The notes under the pieces were generated by a model. That model was given only the letters and a program-made list of their open reading frames with translations. It had not been told where the DNA came from and did not search any database. A DNA stretch of 5,004 nt from a virus (taxonomy: Duplodnaviria > Heunggongvirae > Uroviricota > Caudoviricetes): IMG/VR virus record IMGVR_UViG_3300014523_000031; one strand, given 5' to 3'. Shown here one piece after another: positions 299-5,004 of this stretch (its first letter is position 1; each line of letters opens with the position of its first letter). Made by a program: the position numbers and the translations under genes.

Positions 299-414
299 NN
301 NNNNNNNNNNNNNNNNNNNNNNNNNNNNNNNNNNNNNNNNNNNNNNNNNNNNNNNNNNNNNNNNNNNNNNNNNNNNNNNNNNNNNNNNNNNNNNNNNNNN
401 NNNNNNNNNNNNNN
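299..414. other. Assembly gap (116 consecutive N)
   Basis: Direct observation of an N run; true length and content unknown. Confidence 0.99.
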
Positions 415-474: not shown

Positions 475-930
475 TTACTTAACCAATGATGCTGCATATT
501 CGATAAGGTAAAGCTTTGGGGCCAGCCAAATTTTTAACCAAGTCATATTGGTTACTACACCAATAATAAAAAATCCCCACAGAGTCAAAACTCCAACCAA
601 TGGCATGATAAGAAGATTAATATCACCTTTGCTATCCCAAACCATTGTCGGCCTGTATTTGGGATTTCCTTTCTCCCATGAATATCCTTCATCACCGATT
701 TTACCTGTCTCAACTCTTTGGCACTGCTTCTTCATAAACCAGAAAACCAGTGGGATTGTTAGAATGGCGATGGCCATTAATGTTTTAATCAGACTGTCAA
801 CCATATTCCATAGCAGCAACTGATGAACAACATCAGGAATCTGTGCCTGGCTAAATGAAACAGCCGCGTCTATTCCATTACTGGCTTTTTGCAGTAGTTC
901 TACGAGAATCTTGTTTGCTTGTTCTTCCAT
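475..930 (-). CDS. Hypothetical small membrane protein, 151 aa, two predicted transmembrane segments; function unknown
   Basis: ATG 930 with AAGGTGA Shine-Dalgarno (complement of plus 934-940). Hydrophobic stretches LMAIAILTIPLVFWFM and LLIMPLVGVLTLWGFFIIGVV flank a charged loop. Has its own downstream terminator. The antisense ORF 548-823 looks compositionally junk-like. Confidence 0.75.
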   Translation of the reverse strand: MEEQANKILVELLQKASNGIDAAVSFSQAQIPDVVHQLLLWNMVDSLIKTLMAIAILTIPLVFWFMKKQCQRVETGKIGDEGYSWEKGNPKYRPTMVWDSKGDINLLIMPLVGVLTLWGFFIIGVVTNMTWLKIWLAPKLYLIEYAASLVK

Positions 931-1719: not shown

Positions 1720-2025
1720 TCAATAAGCACCGTACGGTAGTTTACTGTACAATTTTATTTTTTGGACTGCATGTATTTTGTTTCCTAACGGGTTTGAATC
1801 TTTGTAATAAATACTTCTATTTTTTCGAACGACTTCTTCTTTCTTCTTGCAGCAAAGGCTTCCTAGTGATGCTGCTTTGTCTGCTCTGACGCAACCAGAG
1901 AGCTTTAGCGCAATTTTTCGCGCCAGTGCTTCATTACTGCGTCGATCGGCAATAAGTTCTGCTCTGCGAGCTTTGTAGCGGCTTTTTGCCGTACCTTTGG
2001 ATTCTTTCCAGACAATGGTTACCAT
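1720..2025 (-). CDS. N: Transcription antitermination protein N, phage-21-type arginine-rich motif
   Basis: Product MVTIVWKESKGTAKSRYKARRAELIADRR... carries the boxB-binding motif GTAKSRYKARRAELIA known from phage 21 N. AAGGAG Shine-Dalgarno 6 nt upstream of ATG 2025. The ORF-track start at 2055 adds 10 residues with no SD, so I place the start at 2025. Lies directly downstream of PL and nutL. Confidence 0.9.
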   Translation of the reverse strand: MVTIVWKESKGTAKSRYKARRAELIADRRSNEALARKIALKLSGCVRADKAASLGSLCCKKKEEVVRKNRSIYYKDSNPLGNKIHAVQKIKLYSKLPYGAY

Positions 2026-2135
2026 GATGGTCTCCTTTAAGTGGCTTTGGCGCATGACGCGTCGAGGTGCTTATCTTCTCGATCGCTGTCTTGCAGCTGC
2101 AATTCGCGCCATCCCCAAAACCACTCAAGTTCTGG

Positions 2136-2340: not shown

Positions 2341-2990
2341 TAAGGAAGGTTTGCTAGCTTGGCATCAACGACAACGCCAATGATTTTACAGTTCCCATTG
2401 ATTTCAATCATTGGGTATTGTGGATTGAGTGGTTTCAGGAATTTTCTACCGGCATCAATAACTAACTTTTTGAATGTCGCCTCGTTTTCTCCTTCAAGTT
2501 TGGCGACTACCAGCTTTCCATTACGTGGTTCGACTTCTGGGTCGACGAGAATAATCATCCCCTCAGGAATACTCAGTCCTGCCGGGGCAGTCATTGAATC
2601 GCCTTTAACGTCGAGCCAAAAAGAGTCTTCAGAACAATCTACCGTTGTGTCGTACCAGTTATCTATTGCACGCCTATGATATGGCTCTACAGCTTCCATC
2701 CAACATCCTGCGCTTACCCAACTAATTAGAGGATACGAACCTCTTGGATCATGCCTGCTGTGATAGGCAATGTTTGAAAGACTATCCTCTCCTTTCAACA
2801 GGTAATCAGGGGAGCACTGCAAAGCCTTGGCTAAGGCCAATAGGTTTTCGCCATTGGGCTCAGTTTCAGATCGCTCCCATTGGGAAATAGCAACATTAGA
2901 CACGCCAACCATCTTGCCAAGGGCAGCCTGCCTAATCTTGAGTTCTTTTCTGCGAGCGCGAATACGCTCACCCATCAGTTGTGTATTCAT
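2340..2990 (-). CDS. cI: Phage repressor CI (P22 C2-type): N-terminal HTH domain plus C-terminal S24/LexA-like autopeptidase domain
   Basis: 216 aa. HTH segment QAALGKMVGVSNVAISQWERS; Ala-Gly cleavage site in WVSAGCW; catalytic Ser in GDSM and Lys in VVAKL. Sequence matches my recollection of the P22 c2 repressor along its length. Transcribed divergently from cro across the operator region. Confidence 0.96.
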   Translation of the reverse strand: MNTQLMGERIRARRKELKIRQAALGKMVGVSNVAISQWERSETEPNGENLLALAKALQCSPDYLLKGEDSLSNIAYHSRHDPRGSYPLISWVSAGCWMEAVEPYHRRAIDNWYDTTVDCSEDSFWLDVKGDSMTAPAGLSIPEGMIILVDPEVEPRNGKLVVAKLEGENEATFKKLVIDAGRKFLKPLNPQYPMIEINGNCKIIGVVVDAKLANLP

Positions 2991-3056
2991 AGTTAAGACA
3001 TCTTAAATAAACTTGACTTAAGATTCCTTTGGTAGATAATTTAAGTGTTCTTTAAT
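2991..3056. promoter_or_regulatory. OR operator region: three 18-bp P22-type operator sites (OR3, OR2, OR1); PRM expected here on the minus strand
   Basis: Sites at 2991-3008 (AGTTAAGACATCTTAAAT), 3016-3033 (ACTTAAGATTCCTTTGGT) and 3039-3056 (ATTTAAGTGTTCTTTAAT) share the A.T.AAG....CTT.A.T pattern with 7 and 5 bp between them. PRM -10/-35 elements were not resolved confidently. Confidence 0.8.
3013..3040 (+). promoter_or_regulatory. PR promoter
   Basis: -35 TTGACT (3013-3018), 16-nt spacer, -10 GATAAT (3035-3040). Overlaps OR2 and OR1 and sits about 30 nt upstream of cro. Confidence 0.75.
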
Positions 3057-3070
3057 TTCGGAGCGAGTCT

Positions 3071-3256
3071 ATGTACAAAAAAGATGTTATTGACCACTTC
3101 GGAACCCAGCGTGCTGTTGCTAAAGCACTAGGCATTAGCGATGCAGCAGTCTCTCAGTGGAAAGAAGTTATCCCAGAGAAAGACGCCTATCGATTGGAAA
3201 TCGTTACAGCTGGCGCCCTGAAGTATCAAGAAAGTGCTTACCGCCAAGCGGCATAA
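3071..3256 (+). CDS. cro: Cro repressor (P22 Cro-type), 61 aa
   Basis: GGAG Shine-Dalgarno at 3060-3063, ATG 3071. HTH segment QRAVAKALGISDAAVSQW. Sequence matches my recollection of P22 Cro. First gene after PR. Confidence 0.95.
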   Translation: MYKKDVIDHFGTQRAVAKALGISDAAVSQWKEVIPEKDAYRLEIVTAGALKYQESAYRQAA

Positions 3257-3263
3257 GCAAATT

Positions 3264-3303
3264 GCTCTTTAACAGTTCTGGCCTTTCACCTCTAACCGGG
3301 TGA
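3264..3303 (+). promoter_or_regulatory. nutR: nutR: boxA plus phage-21-type boxB hairpin
   Basis: boxA GCTCTTTAACA at 3264-3274 (identical to the nutL boxA), then boxB UCACCU-CUAACC-GGGUGA at 3286-3303 (6-bp stem including one U-G pair, same loop as nutL). Confidence 0.85.
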
Positions 3304-3349: not shown

Positions 3350-3394
3350 ATCAATATAGGAAAATTAACAAATGGCACAAGCAAGCTACAGCAA
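3350..3394 (-). promoter_or_regulatory. Candidate PRE (establishment promoter) with a CII-binding direct repeat TTGC-N6-TTGC
   Basis: Minus strand reads TTGCTGTAGCTTGC (complement of plus 3381-3394), the canonical CII recognition geometry. It lies within the first codons of cII and points leftward toward cro and cI, as in lambda. The -10 element is not well defined. Confidence 0.55.
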
Positions 3395-3668
3395 GCCAAC
3401 ACAGCGAGAAATTGATCGCGCTGAAACTGATTTACTCATCAACCTGTCAACGCTTACCCAGCGCGGTCTGGCAAAGATGATTGGCTGTCATGAATCGAAG
3501 ATAAGCAGAACGGACTGGAGATTTATTGCTTCGGTCTTGTGTGCTTTCGGAATGGCATCAGACATCAGTCCGATTAGCAGGGCTTTTAAGTATGCGCTTG
3601 ATGAAATCACAAAGAAAAAATCCCCGGCCGCCACCGAGGATTTTAAGCAAATTGATATGCAATTCTGA
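3372..3668 (+). CDS. cII: CII-family transcriptional activator (lambda CII / P22 C1 analog), 98 aa
   Basis: C-terminal KKKSPAATEDFKQIDMQF parallels the lambda CII C-terminus (NKKRPAATERSEQIQMEF as I recall it). HTH-like segment TQRGLAKMIGCHESKISR. AGGA Shine-Dalgarno upstream of ATG 3372. Located after cro and nutR. Confidence 0.9.
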   Translation: MAQASYSKPTQREIDRAETDLLINLSTLTQRGLAKMIGCHESKISRTDWRFIASVLCAFGMASDISPISRAFKYALDEITKKKSPAATEDFKQIDMQF

Positions 3669-3700
3669 GGGAATTACTGGATCAATCCACAGGAGTAATT

Positions 3701-3862
3701 ATGACAAAACGTCGTAAGAAATACCAGGAAAAAGAAGAGATTCGACACCCTGATTCACCTGAGGGATTAGTGGTAGCCGCAGCAAATAACAGGGCGTTCG
3801 CAGAGCGCCTTGTTGGTGTTTACAGACTAGCCAAAGCAGGGGTGAAACATGGGCGTCGTTAA
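3701..3862 (+). CDS. Possible small ORF, 53 aa, basic N-terminus ([53 protein letters not shown])
   Basis: AGGAG Shine-Dalgarno at 3691-3695 with 5-nt spacing to ATG 3701. Stop TAA 3860-3862 overlaps the start of the O-like gene by 14 nt in another frame. Absent from the ORF track because of size. Not recognised. Confidence 0.4.
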   Translation: MTKRRKKYQEKEEIRHPDSPEGLVVAAANNRAFAERLVGVYRLAKAGVKHGRR

Positions 3863-4670
3863 GTTAGCTGATTACAGGCCTCAACTGGAGGTCGTGGAGC
3901 ATCGCGTGGCAGATACCGAAGATGGTTTCATGCGCGTTGCTAACGAGATTATCGACAGTCTGCTGATGGCTGATTTAACCGTCCGGCAGTTGAAGGTGAT
4001 GCTCGCTATCATGCGCAAGACATACGGATTCAATAAGCCGATGGATCGACTCACAAACACGCAGATAGCAGCCATGACAGGTATTCATCACACTCATGTT
4101 TGCGCTGCCAAGCGCCAGCTTATCGAGCGTAAATTCCTCATTGCTGATGGCGTGAAAATCGGAGTGAACAAGGTGGTTTCTCAGTGGATTAGCCAGGACA
4201 GCTTAACATTAGCTAAAACAGCTAATAAAACATTAGCCAAGTCGGCTAATGGGTATAAGCCAAGTCAGCTAAACACAAAAGACAATATACAAAAGACAAT
4301 AAATACAAATACCCCCTTACCCCCTAACGGGGGCGGCGATGGGCAGGTTAAACCTGAACGTCGCAAGGCAGAACGAATCGACTACGAATCCTTCCTGAGC
4401 GCCTACAACGCCGAAGTCGGTGACAGACTTCCACACGCTGTTGCGGTCAACGAGAAACGCAAACGCCGCCTGAAGAAAATCATCCCGCAACTGAAAACGC
4501 CAAACGTGGACGGTTTCAGAGCGTATGTCAGGGCGTTTGTACATCAGGCCAAGCCGTTTTACTTCGGAGACAACGACACTGGCTGGACGGCAGATTTTGA
4601 TTACCTGCTGAGGGAAGATTCGTTAACGGGAGTACGGGAAGGGAAGTTTGCAGACAGGGGGATTGCATGA
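3849..4670 (+). CDS. Replication initiation protein, lambda O / P22 gp18 type
   Basis: 273 aa. N-terminal region ([56 protein letters not shown]...) has the hallmarks of the phage O N-terminal DNA-binding domain. Low-complexity linker ([13 protein letters not shown]) coincides with ori-like iterons in the DNA. Stop TGA overlaps the ATG of the downstream helicase (ATGA at 4667-4670). Confidence 0.9.
4187..4273. repeat. ori-like iterons: four copies of an approximately 20-bp repeat with internal dyad symmetry, inside the O-like gene
   Basis: Copies start at about 4187, 4207, 4231 and 4254, with a core near ATTAGCCAAGTCGGCTAA. The best copy is TTAGCC-AAGTC-GGCTAA at 4233-4249, whose two arms are reverse complements. 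Copies 3 and 4 share 16 of 20 positions by hand alignment. Confidence 0.7.
4274..4333. promoter_or_regulatory. A-rich tract and GC palindrome following the iterons (putative origin unwinding region)
   Basis: 4274-4312 is strongly A-rich on the plus strand and contains a 12-bp direct repeat caaaagacaata (4276-4287 and 4290-4301). It is followed by the palindrome CCCCC-TAAC-GGGGG at 4320-4333. This mirrors the iteron / AT-rich / palindrome layout of lambda ori. Confidence 0.6.
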
Positions 4671-5004
4671 GACAGGATATCGAAGCGAGCGTTATCGGTG
4701 GCCTGCTGATTGGTGGATTAACACCAACCGCCAGCGACGTTCTGGCAACGCTAGAGCCGGAAGCGTTTTCAATTCCGCTCTACCGGAAAGCCTTCGAGGC
4801 TATCCGCAAGCAGGCGAGAAACAGAAACCTAATCGACGCGCTGATGGTTGCCGAGGCGTGCGGAGAGGAGCATTTCACGTCAATCCTGATGACCAGCAAG
4901 AACTGCCCGAGTGCCGCAAACCTGAAGGGATATGCCGGAATGGTCGCGGATAACTATCACCGCCGTCTGGTGCTGGAAATCATGGATGAAATGCGTGAAC
5001 CAAT
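4667..5004 (+). CDS. Replicative DNA helicase, DnaB family (P22 gp12-like), N-terminal part; continues past window end
   Basis: Hand translation from ATG 4667 gives [18 protein letters not shown]...[20 protein letters not shown]...[30 protein letters not shown], which matches the DnaB N-terminal domain pattern (compare E. coli DnaB ...SVLGGLML...NTPSAANISAYADIV...). The track ORF 4648-4953 is in a different frame, Arg/Trp-rich, and rejected. Confidence 0.88.

What the first reader, a model, noticed from the sequence alone, without database searches (positions are those of the whole stretch)
4187..4333. Lambda-like origin architecture inside the O-type initiator gene
Four dyad-symmetric iterons of about 20 bp (core TTAGCC-AAGTC-GGCTAA), then an A-rich tract with a 12-bp direct repeat, then a GC palindrome. 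All lie in the DNA encoding the low-complexity interdomain linker of the initiator. This is the classic O-binding / unwinding-element layout and pinpoints the prophage ori.
Basis: partly seen in the sequence, partly recalled or inferred. Interest (0 to 1): 0.4.

Follow-up and report, generated by a model that had tools for sequence, protein, structure and literature searches.

The report
Phage replication origin inside initiator gene
This is the ordinary lambda-style replication origin of an HK97/P22-family prophage, sitting inside the phage's own initiator gene: real and well conserved, but a textbook layout and nearly identical to sequences in HK97 and hundreds of E. coli genomes.

Summary
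Four 18-19 nt repeats (4188, 4208, 4232, 4255) are the only direct-repeat array in the window, and no shuffle reproduces them. An A-rich tract (4270-4312) with a 13-nt duplicate follows, then a 5-bp C5/G5 inverted repeat (4320-4333).

They lie in the initiator gene (3849-4670), directly after its Phage_rep_O domain. A DnaB-family helicase gene follows.

The repeat spacing (20/24/23 nt), the position in the gene and the distance to the A-tract equal those of the annotated lambda iterons and of P22 gene 18, whose origin is annotated.

The repeats fall in three codon phases. Synonymous sites are conserved more there than in the folded domain (80% vs 49%). The array recurs at the same place in more than 20 homologues whose N-domains are 58-81% identical. 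Lambda and P22 have different iterons and a different candidate recognition segment.

Two caveats. Only the two inner iterons are good palindromes. The GC palindrome is not beyond chance on its own.

The DNA is 98-100% identical to HK97 O/P, ST104 gene 18 and about 8% of complete E. coli genomes.

Verdict: interpretation supported, already known in kind, low interest. Binding and origin firing have not been shown experimentally for this iteron type in the literature I could search.

The parts
3013..3040 (+). pR-like sigma-70 promoter (TTGACT-16-GATAAT). Rightward transcription from here runs through cro, cII, the initiator gene and the origin.
   Evidence: 10 of 12 consensus positions. A role in activating the origin is inferred from lambda (PMC5043065).
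3849..4670 (+). O-type replication initiator gene (273 aa). It is 98-99% identical to HK97 gp54 and ST104 gene 18.
3903..4187 (+). Coding region of the N-terminal Phage_rep_O domain (aa 19-113), the presumed iteron-binding domain.
   Evidence: Pfam PF04492 E = 3.2e-33. TIGR01610 E = 4.5e-28.
4188..4206 (.). Iteron 1, ATTAGCCAGGACAGCTTAA. The left arm is good and the right arm degenerate.
4208..4226 (.). Iteron 2, ATTAGCTAAAACAGCTAAT, with perfect 7-nt dyad arms.
4232..4250 (.). Iteron 3, ATTAGCCAAGTCGGCTAAT, with perfect dyad arms (8-nt arms over 4231-4251).
4255..4273 (.). Iteron 4, ATAAGCCAAGTCAGCTAAA. The left arm is degenerate and the right arm good.
4270..4312 (.). A-rich, easily melted tract (28 A of 43), the presumed DNA-unwinding element. 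It contains the duplicate ACAAAAGACAATA at 4275 and 4289. It begins with ACACAAAAGA, a motif shared with lambda and P22.
   Evidence: (least stable duplex within 3849-5004 at window sizes 30, 40 and 50)
4310..4333 (.). C-run direct repeat TACCCCCT x2, then the inverted repeat CCCCC-TAAC-GGGGG (4320-4333). Its role is unknown.
   Evidence: Not significant alone. Short inverted repeats of unrelated sequence occupy the same position in other variants, including lambda.
4341..4667 (+). Coding region of the C-terminal domain of the initiator (from about aa 165). It is shared with P22 gp18. It is presumed to recruit the helicase.
   Evidence: The type of C-terminal domain changes with the type of partner gene in relatives.
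4667..5004 (+). Start of the DnaB-family replicative helicase gene (of the HK97 gp55 / P22 gp12 type), cut by the end of the window.
   Evidence: Pfam DnaB N-terminal domain E = 1.2e-14..

Best explanation
Positions 4188-4333 are the theta-replication origin of a lambdoid prophage whose replication module is of the HK97 / ST104 / 'Eru2' type.

The proposed mechanism has five steps:
1. Dimers of the initiator bind the four dyad iterons through the N-terminal Phage_rep_O domain. That domain is encoded immediately upstream.
2. The four bound dimers, held in a fixed 20/24/23-nt geometry, form a bent nucleoprotein complex like the lambda O-some.
3. On supercoiled DNA this complex melts the adjacent A-rich tract (4270-4312).
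4. The initiator's C-terminal domain brings in the phage's own DnaB-family helicase, encoded from 4667. This differs from lambda, which uses lambda P plus host DnaB.
5. Transcription from the pR-like promoter (3013-3040) both expresses the two genes and passes through the origin.

Shown here: the anatomy; its register with the lambda and P22 origins; selection at the DNA level; and the co-variation of iteron type with N-domain type. Inferred from lambda and P22: binding, bending, melting, helicase recruitment and activation by transcription.
For: 1. The repeat array is real and unique in the window.

2. The geometry is identical in three specificity classes. Spacing is 20/24/23 in the window, in lambda's annotated iterons (39034, 39054, 39078, 39101) and in P22. 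The last iteron starts 17-18 nt before ACACAAAAGA. The offset in the gene is 340, 349 and 353. The P22 record annotates rep_origin starting at its first repeat.

3. Selection acts on the DNA, not the peptide. The four repeats start in codon phases 1, 3, 3 and 2, so only two of them encode the same peptide. Among codons for identical residues, 69 of 86 (80%) are the same codon in the iteron segment, against 119 of 242 (49%) in the folded N-domain. This pools four homologues; Fisher p = 5e-7, and each homologue alone gives p < 0.03.

4. Conservation. The same TTAGCC..GGCTAA array sits directly after the N-domain in phages of Yersinia, Klebsiella, Providencia, Cronobacter and Salmonella. It also appears in 22 divergent IMG/VR loci with N-domains 58-81% identical. 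Most keep the 20/24/23 spacing, and some have 5-6 iterons.

5. Co-variation. Every gene with these iterons shares the segment TGIHHTH(V/I)CxAK. P22 has TGMAPTKCSTAK with TTTACC..GGTAAA iterons. Lambda has TKLPVKRCNEAK with ATCCCTC..GAGGGAT iterons.

6. The A-tract is the least stable duplex in the O/helicase coding DNA, and its first 10-25 nt are conserved as far as lambda.

7. Modularity. The same N-domain/iteron block is joined to different C-domains. The gene that follows is then a DnaB-like helicase, lambda P or a DnaC/IstB-like loader.

8. Literature. The lambda origin lies in O, with four inverted repeats that bind O dimers and a 40-bp A+T-rich region that opens (PMC5043065). In-frame deletions in the lambda A+T region destroy the origin, yet the O alleles still complement (PMC6022878). 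P22 gene 18 contains four ~20-bp repeats. Lambda hybrids carrying P22 genes 18 and 12 replicate with P22 specificity (PMC3349717). HK97 is listed as a separate predicted origin-recognition specificity, and ST104 is 98% identical to it (PMC2629481).
Against: No experiment on this iteron type was found in the searchable literature. Binding, melting and the start site are extrapolated from lambda.

The two outer iterons are poor palindromes. The GC palindrome is not significant on its own.

The A-tract is not the least stable stretch of the whole window; intergenic regions are equally weak.

The window is a prophage fragment with a masked stretch and a truncated helicase gene. Whether this copy is functional cannot be judged.

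The single-sequence structure model was too poor to confirm a winged-helix fold.
Confidence: 0.9

Rival explanations
1. The repeats are only a by-product of a low-complexity, repetitive linker peptide (TLAKTAN / TLAKSAN) and have no function as DNA.
For: Iterons 2 and 3 are in the same reading frame and encode TLAKTAN and TLAKSAN. The segment lies between two domains.
Against: Iterons 1 and 4 are in other frames and encode ISQDSL and YKPSQLN. A peptide repeat has no need for dyad symmetry. Synonymous sites are more conserved here than in the folded domain. The spacing is identical to lambda and P22, whose linker peptides are different.
Confidence: 0.03
2. The repeats are initiator-binding sites used mainly for control (titration, autoregulation, incompatibility or pairing of copies). 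Strand opening and the start of synthesis occur elsewhere in the phage.
For: Iterons have control roles of this kind in plasmids (PMC5043065). Ectopic lambda origin copies inhibit lambda (PMC3349717).
Against: The A-rich tract is directly attached, conserved and easily melted. The window has no other repeat array. In lambda the same layout is the origin itself. P22 genes 18-12 carry the replication specificity as a unit.
Confidence: 0.04
3. An additional role, not an exclusive rival. The conserved ACACAAAAGA... stretch between the iterons and the C-domain coding region serves as a homologous-recombination joint. Origin-recognition modules are shuffled there against helicase-recruitment modules.
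For: P22 DNA matches the window only from 4265 onward, while ST415_1NRH and BTP1 carry the P22 N-half plus this window's C-half. The same N-domain/iteron block is joined to at least three kinds of C-domain and partner gene. Stx2_PV12-16 joins an unrelated N-half to this C-half near the C-run.
Against: Conservation of the tract is explained just as well by its function as an unwinding element.
Confidence: 0.3
4. The hairpin-forming repeats act in RNA or as transcription terminators for leftward (antisense) transcription.
For: Iteron 3 followed by TTTTATTAG on the minus strand is flagged as terminator-like.
Against: Two such sites in 1.1 kb is what shuffles give (mean 1.2). No Rfam family matches. 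The repeat arms are conserved, rather than changing through compensatory substitutions as paired RNA positions would.
Confidence: 0.02

Closest known systems
Bacteriophage lambda ori (four iterons plus an A+T-rich region inside gene O)
   Same: The origin lies inside the initiator gene, right after the Phage_rep_O domain. There are four ~19-bp dyad iterons spaced 20/24/23 nt. The last iteron starts 18 nt before ACACAAAAGA. An A-rich tract of about 40 nt follows, then a short inverted repeat about 44-47 nt further on.
   Different: The iteron sequence differs (ATCCCTCAAAACGAGGGAT in lambda, ATTAGCCAAGTCGGCTAAT here). The N-domain is only ~40% identical. The C-terminal domain is unrelated. The partner here is a phage DnaB-family helicase, not lambda P with host DnaB.
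P22 ori inside gene 18 (rep_origin 32840-32984 in BK000583)
   Same: The geometry is the same. The A-rich tract and C5/G5 palindrome are about 95% identical. The C-terminal domain and the DnaB-type helicase partner (gene 12) are the same.
   Different: The iterons (TTTACCAGATCGGTAAA) and the N-domain (40% identity) are different. Origin specificity is therefore predicted to differ. The literature lists P22 and HK97 as separate specificities.
HK97 gene O/P (gp54/gp55), ST104 gene 18/12, and the 'Eru2' replication module of Stx phages
   Same: The DNA is 98.4% identical over 1156 nt. The origin segment is 99-100% identical. The initiator is 273 aa and is followed by a DnaB helicase, as described for Eru2A/B (PMC8044961).
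   Different: Essentially nothing differs: this window is another copy of that module. The HK97 record and the other matching records listed annotate no origin feature under the match. The Eru paper does not mention repeats.
Six-iteron origins of Stx phages 933W and P27
   Same: The number of iterons varies on a common plan. Relatives of this module with 5-6 iterons exist: L074, L077 and Cronobacter phiES15.
   Different: Those phages have lambda-type iterons and lambda-type O/P (PMC7466680). This window has four iterons.
Iteron origins of theta plasmids (P1, RK2, R6K, pPS10)
   Same: An array of initiator-binding repeats lies next to an A+T-rich opening region.
   Different: [quoted passage not shown] Here the sites are inverted repeats inside the initiator gene, and DnaA-box matches are not enriched.

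Membership tests
Lambdoid O-type origin (origin inside the initiator gene) | The initiator has the Phage_rep_O N-terminal domain. | tested here: met
   PF04492 E = 3.2e-33 over aa 19-113. TIGR01610 E = 4.5e-28.
Lambdoid O-type origin (origin inside the initiator gene) | An array of at least four ~19-bp iterons with hyphenated dyad symmetry lies in the middle of the gene. | tested here: met
   Four copies; 0 of 200 shuffles reach this. Two have perfect dyad arms and two have 4/7. The array starts at codon 114.
Lambdoid O-type origin (origin inside the initiator gene) | The iterons are in register with those of lambda. | tested here: met
   Spacing is 20/24/23 in the window, lambda and P22. The distance to ACACAAAAGA is 17-18 nt in all three.
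Lambdoid O-type origin (origin inside the initiator gene) | An A+T-rich, easily melted region of about 40 bp lies to the right of the iterons. | tested here: met
   G+C is 0.32 and A is 28 of 43. It is the least stable duplex of 3849-5004. It aligns with the lambda A+T-rich region.
Lambdoid O-type origin (origin inside the initiator gene) | The repeats are conserved as DNA in homologous genes, and their type co-varies with the N-domain. | tested here: met
Lambdoid O-type origin (origin inside the initiator gene) | The initiator binds the iterons and opens the A+T-rich region. | not testable with these tools
   This needs EMSA or footprinting and permanganate probing. It is shown only for lambda.
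Lambdoid O-type origin (origin inside the initiator gene) | The segment supports autonomous, initiator-dependent replication. | not testable with these tools
   The matches in the plasmid collection are either records of 0.4-4.9 Mb or ~35-48 kb circles the size of phage genomes. They are not evidence.
HK97 / ST104 / Eru2 replication module | The initiator gene, origin and start of the helicase gene are near-identical. | tested here: met
   98.4% over 1156 nt to HK97. 99.6% over the origin to ST104 and HK446. 100% over 161 nt in E. coli genomes.
HK97 / ST104 / Eru2 replication module | The partner gene encodes a DnaB-family helicase rather than lambda P. | tested here: met
   DnaB N-terminal domain E = 1.2e-14. 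The gene is cut by the end of the window.
P22 origin specificity | P22-type iterons (TTTACC-N5-GGTAAA) and a P22-type N-domain. | tested here: not met
   The iterons differ. The N-domain is 40% identical. P22 DNA matches only from 4265 onward.
Lambda origin specificity | Lambda-type iterons (ATCCCTC-N5-GAGGGAT). | tested here: not met
Plasmid-type iteron origin with DnaA boxes | Direct repeats bound by monomers, with DnaA boxes nearby. | tested here: not met
   The sites are inverted repeats. DnaA-box-like matches number 3 against 4.9 expected.

The most novel reading that the evidence does not exclude
The origin plan may be more rigid than usually described.

Three or more specificity classes share exactly the same iteron spacing and the same distance to the A-tract. 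A short inverted repeat of unrelated sequence starts 43-47 nt after the A-tract begins in most variants examined:
- C5/G5 in this window
- GTCATC/GATGAC in L085
- CCCAC/GTGGG in L086
- TCTGC/GCAGA in L074
- GTCAGAG/CTCTGAC in lambda

This palindrome could be a third functional origin element, such as a helicase entry or priming mark. Separately, the hairpin-prone iterons could be the structures that the Lamassu and OLD defence systems sense in HK97-type phages.
Probability: 0.2. Interest if true: 0.35.

Novelty: already known. Interest (0 to 1): 0.15.

Why it matters
As a discovery it matters little. The layout is textbook (lambda, P22), and the sequence is a near-identical copy of the HK97/ST104 module.

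It has three practical uses:
- It gives exact coordinates and a consensus (ATTAGCCAAGTCAGCTAAT x4, spacing 20/24/23) for an origin type present in about 8% of complete E. coli genomes and in many Stx-converting and P22-like phages. The phage records I inspected (HK97) or saw listed under the match do not annotate it.
- It shows that the 'Eru2' module of Stx phages, described as non-lambdoid, has a lambda-plan origin.
- Palindromic lambda iterons have recently been reported as the site where the Lamassu and OLD defence proteins accumulate, and HK97 is OLD-sensitive. These iterons are therefore candidate triggers that can now be mutated on purpose.

Tried and rejected
- Structure. A single-sequence AlphaFold2 model of the initiator had mean pLDDT 38 and pTM 0.21, so it was unusable and no fold search was run.
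- Solved structures. A sequence search of the PDB found no relative at E <= 1.
- RNA families. Rfam gave no match at gathering score anywhere in the window.
- Literature. A search for the iteron sequence itself returned only chance hits in unrelated papers. Searches for HK97 with iterons or ori found no description of this iteron type. Tsurimoto & Matsubara 1981 is not held.
- DnaA boxes are not enriched.
- Plasmid collection. The matches are records of 0.4-4.9 Mb or ~35-48 kb circles the size of phage genomes. They are not evidence of plasmid replication.
- GC palindrome. It is not significant alone. A position test across variants is suggestive only: the position window was chosen after seeing the data, and several variants are related.
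- Terminator reading of iteron 3. Rejected, because the number of such sites equals the shuffle expectation.

Full report
**Context.** The window is the immunity and replication region of a lambdoid prophage. On the minus strand lies a P22-type repressor gene (2340-2990; Peptidase_S24 plus HTH_3). On the plus strand, in order, lie:
- a P22_Cro gene (3071-3256)
- a CII gene (3372-3668)
- a 53-codon ORF (3701-3862)
- a 273-codon initiator gene (3849-4670), whose residues 19-113 match Pfam Phage_rep_O (E = 3e-33) and TIGR01610 phage_O_Nterm
- the first 112 codons of a DnaB-family helicase gene, from 4667

The initiator-helicase DNA is 98.4% identical over 1156 nt to HK97 genes O/P (gp54/gp55), HK446, HK544, Nil2 and many Stx-converting phages. 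The origin segment is 99.6% identical to Salmonella phage ST104 gene 18. It is 100% identical over 161 nt to several E. coli chromosomes. It occurs in 443 of 5426 complete E. coli genomes.

**The observation.** The tools find four copies of an 18-nt unit at 4188, 4208, 4232 and 4255, with spacing 20, 24, 23.
- The consensus at up to 3 mismatches hits only these four places. The chance expectation is 0.01, and no shuffle out of 200 reaches four.
- These repeats and the A-tract duplicate are the only direct-repeat families in the window.
- As 19-mers, the inner two have perfect 7-nt complementary arms around a 5-nt centre. The outer two have 4 of 7.
- Across 42 distinct homologous arrays, the degenerate halves are always the right arm of iteron 1 and the left arm of iteron 4, that is, the outer edges of the array.
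- The A-rich tract (4270-4312, 28 A of 43) holds the G+C minimum of the region (0.32). It is the least stable duplex of the initiator/helicase coding DNA at window sizes 30, 40 and 50.
- The tract contains an exact 13-nt duplicate, ACAAAAGACAATA, with period 14.
- The GC palindrome is CCCCC-TAAC-GGGGG (4320-4333), preceded by TACCCCCT x2. Its fold energy is no better than that of shuffles (z = +0.5 and -0.06).
- Everything lies between the end of the Phage_rep_O domain (codon 113) and the start of the conserved C-terminal domain (about codon 165).

**Is it DNA or peptide that is conserved?** The four repeats begin in codon phases 1, 3, 3 and 2. They encode [20 protein letters not shown] and YKPSQLN. 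A peptide repeat could explain at most the middle pair.

I compared codon use with homologues from Yersinia, Klebsiella, Providencia and Cronobacter phages. Among codons that specify the same residue, 74-86% are the identical codon in the iteron segment, against 37-54% in the folded N-domain. Pooled, this is 69/86 against 119/242, Fisher p = 5e-7. The four comparisons are not phylogenetically independent, but each alone gives p < 0.03. Selection therefore acts on the nucleotide sequence.

**Comparison with known origins.** The lambda reference record annotates iterons at 39034, 39054, 39078 and 39101. That is spacing 20, 24, 23, starting at nucleotide 349 of gene O. The window's array has the same spacing and starts at nucleotide 340 of its gene.

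P22 gene 18 has four TTTACC-N5-GGTAAA repeats with the same spacing, starting at nucleotide 353. This is exactly where the curated P22 record places rep_origin.

In all three phages the last iteron starts 17-18 nt before the motif ACACAAAAGA, which opens the A-rich tract. The three arrays align without gaps.

The literature supports the lambda and P22 side:
- The lambda origin maps within O. It has four inverted repeats that bind O dimers and a 40-bp A+T-rich region that opens on supercoiled DNA. It also needs transcription from pR (PMC5043065).
- In-frame deletions in the lambda A+T-rich region destroy the origin, yet those O alleles still complement O amber mutants. The DNA rather than the linker peptide is what matters there (PMC6022878).
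- P22 gene 18 is stated to contain four ~20-bp repeats different from lambda's.
- A lambda hybrid carrying P22 genes 18 and 12 replicates with P22 specificity (PMC3349717).

I collected homologues in three ways: DNA search, protein search, and a pattern scan of IMG/VR.

Every gene whose N-domain is of the window's type has the TTAGCC..GGCTAA array directly after the domain, followed by ACACAAAAGA. These N-domains are 53-81% identical to the window's and share the invariant segment TGIHHTH(V/I)CxAK. Most keep the 20/24/23 spacing.

Variants exist. L074 and L077 have an inserted extra pair of repeats, and Cronobacter phiES15 has five.

Genes with another N-domain type carry other iterons at the same place. 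Lambda has TKLPVKRCNEAK with ATCCCTC..GAGGGAT. P22 has TGMAPTKCSTAK with TTTACC..GGTAAA. This co-variation is what an initiator and its binding sites should show. It also nominates that segment as the recognition element; this is an inference, because I have no usable structure.

**Modularity.** P22 DNA matches the window only from 4265 rightward. Phages ST415_1NRH and BTP1 combine the P22 N-half and P22 iterons with this window's C-half.

Conversely, the window's N-domain/iteron block is found joined to several unrelated C-terminal domains. The next gene is then a DnaB-family helicase (most loci), a lambda-P homologue (L072, phiES15) or a DnaC/IstB-like ATPase (L073).

So the N-half plus iterons is the origin-recognition module. 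The C-half goes with the helicase or loader, as is established for lambda O and P. The joint lies in the origin's A-rich tract.

**The GC palindrome.** It is weak alone. However, in a set of origin variants whose sequence after the A-tract is unrelated, the best short inverted repeat starts 43-47 nt after ACACAAAAGA:
- GTCATC/GATGAC in L085
- CCCAC/GTGGG in L086
- TCTGC/GCAGA in L074
- CGAGAA/TTCTCG in L072
- GTCAGAG/CTCTGAC in lambda

L073 lacks it, and in MS2 LVA the repeat starts later (offset 51, centre 61), outside this range.

The encoded peptides differ, which argues for a feature of the DNA. But the stems are short, several variants are related, and I chose the position window after seeing the data. 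I treat this as suggestive only. From memory, unverified here, early lambda papers described a palindrome to the right of the A+T-rich region.

**Mechanism.** The best-supported reading (confidence 0.9) is the lambda plan with a P22-type partner:
1. Initiator dimers bind the four iterons.
2. They form a bent complex.
3. The complex opens the A-tract.
4. The C-terminal domain recruits the phage DnaB-type helicase.

A pR-like promoter (3013-3040, 10 of 12 consensus positions) supplies transcription through the origin.

Rivals are weak. A pure peptide repeat, control-only binding sites and an antisense terminator are addressed. A role of the conserved A-tract as a recombination joint is compatible with the main reading and plausible.

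**Novelty.** The kind of element is textbook. The sequence is an almost exact copy of one sequenced in HK97 in 2000. HK97 is already listed as its own predicted origin-recognition specificity, and ST104 is 98% identical to it (PMC2629481).

Two gaps remain in the sources I could search:
- I found no explicit description or annotation of these particular iterons. The HK97 record annotates no origin. The 'Eru2' description of the same 273-aa protein in Stx phages mentions no repeats and calls the module non-lambdoid (PMC8044961).
- I found no experimental test of this iteron type.

Recent work places the Lamassu and OLD defence proteins at the palindromic lambda iterons during replication, and HK97 is OLD-sensitive. 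The iteron array here folds as single-stranded DNA far better than shuffles (z = -5.1). It is therefore a reasonable candidate trigger. That is a modest practical reason to have the coordinates.

**Verdict.** The element is already known in kind. Interest is 0.15.

Noticed in passing
window 3610-3700, minus strand (terminator stem 3644-3617): An oop-like antisense element overlaps the 3' end of cII. It has a 12-pair GC-rich hairpin followed by TTTTTTCTTTG. The two-hairpin RNA fold has z = -4.1. The P22 record annotates an oop terminator and promoter at the equivalent place. The simple scan found no promoter, and Rfam found no family.
   Followed up: partly
window 3264-3303 (+) and 2175-2136 (-): Candidate nutR and nutL sites. 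Both have the same boxA-like GCTCTTTAACA followed by a hairpin: TCACCT-CTAACC-GGGTGA on the right and CTCAAC-CTAACC-GTTGAG on the left. The folds alone are not significant (z = -0.65 and -1.7).
   Followed up: partly
window 1720-2055 (-): A 111-aa ORF upstream of the repressor gives only a sub-threshold match to the Pfam N_peptide antiterminator family (E = 0.009). Its arginine-rich start (GTAKSRYKARRAELIA) resembles the phage 21 N protein, from memory and unverified.
   Followed up: partly
window 299-414: A run of 116 N (masked or unresolved sequence) lies in the leftmost part of the window. The ORFs listed across it are artefacts.
   Followed up: no
window 2990-3057: The operator region between the repressor gene and cro has several overlapping imperfect inverted repeats built on TTAAG/CTTAA. 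They lie around the pR-like promoter at 3013-3040. This fits P22-type operators, from memory.
   Followed up: partly
L074 1828-1952, L077 1813-1937, L010 (Cronobacter phiES15) 1340-1460: Relatives with more than four iterons of the same type: an inserted extra pair in L074 and L077, and five in phiES15. This parallels the six-iteron origins of Stx phages relative to lambda.
   Followed up: partly
L011 (Stx2_PV12-16) 1070-1200: An initiator with an unrelated N-terminal half carries at least five CCGCACATGA repeats in its middle. It is fused to the same C-terminal half as this window's initiator (93.8% identical); its own C-run/G-run palindrome is slightly different (CCCCCC-AAT-GGGGG). This looks like another origin type recombined onto the same helicase-recruiting module.
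   Followed up: partly
L008 (Providencia phage PSTCR7lys) 853-2025: This initiator has the same iterons but roughly 110 extra residues inserted between the A-rich tract and the C-terminal domain. It lacks the C5/G5 palindrome.
   Followed up: no
L072, L073, L010 versus the other loci: The same N-domain/iteron module is followed by three different partner genes: a DnaB-like helicase, a lambda-P homologue or a DnaC/IstB-like ATPase. The C-terminal domain of the initiator changes with the partner.
   Followed up: yes
window 475-930, 989-1240, 1436-1723 (all minus strand): Three ORFs in the early-left region (151, 83 and 95 aa) match no Pfam family; only the 151-aa ORF was also scanned against NCBIfam, without a match. 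The 151-aa product looks membrane-associated by eye.
   Followed up: no
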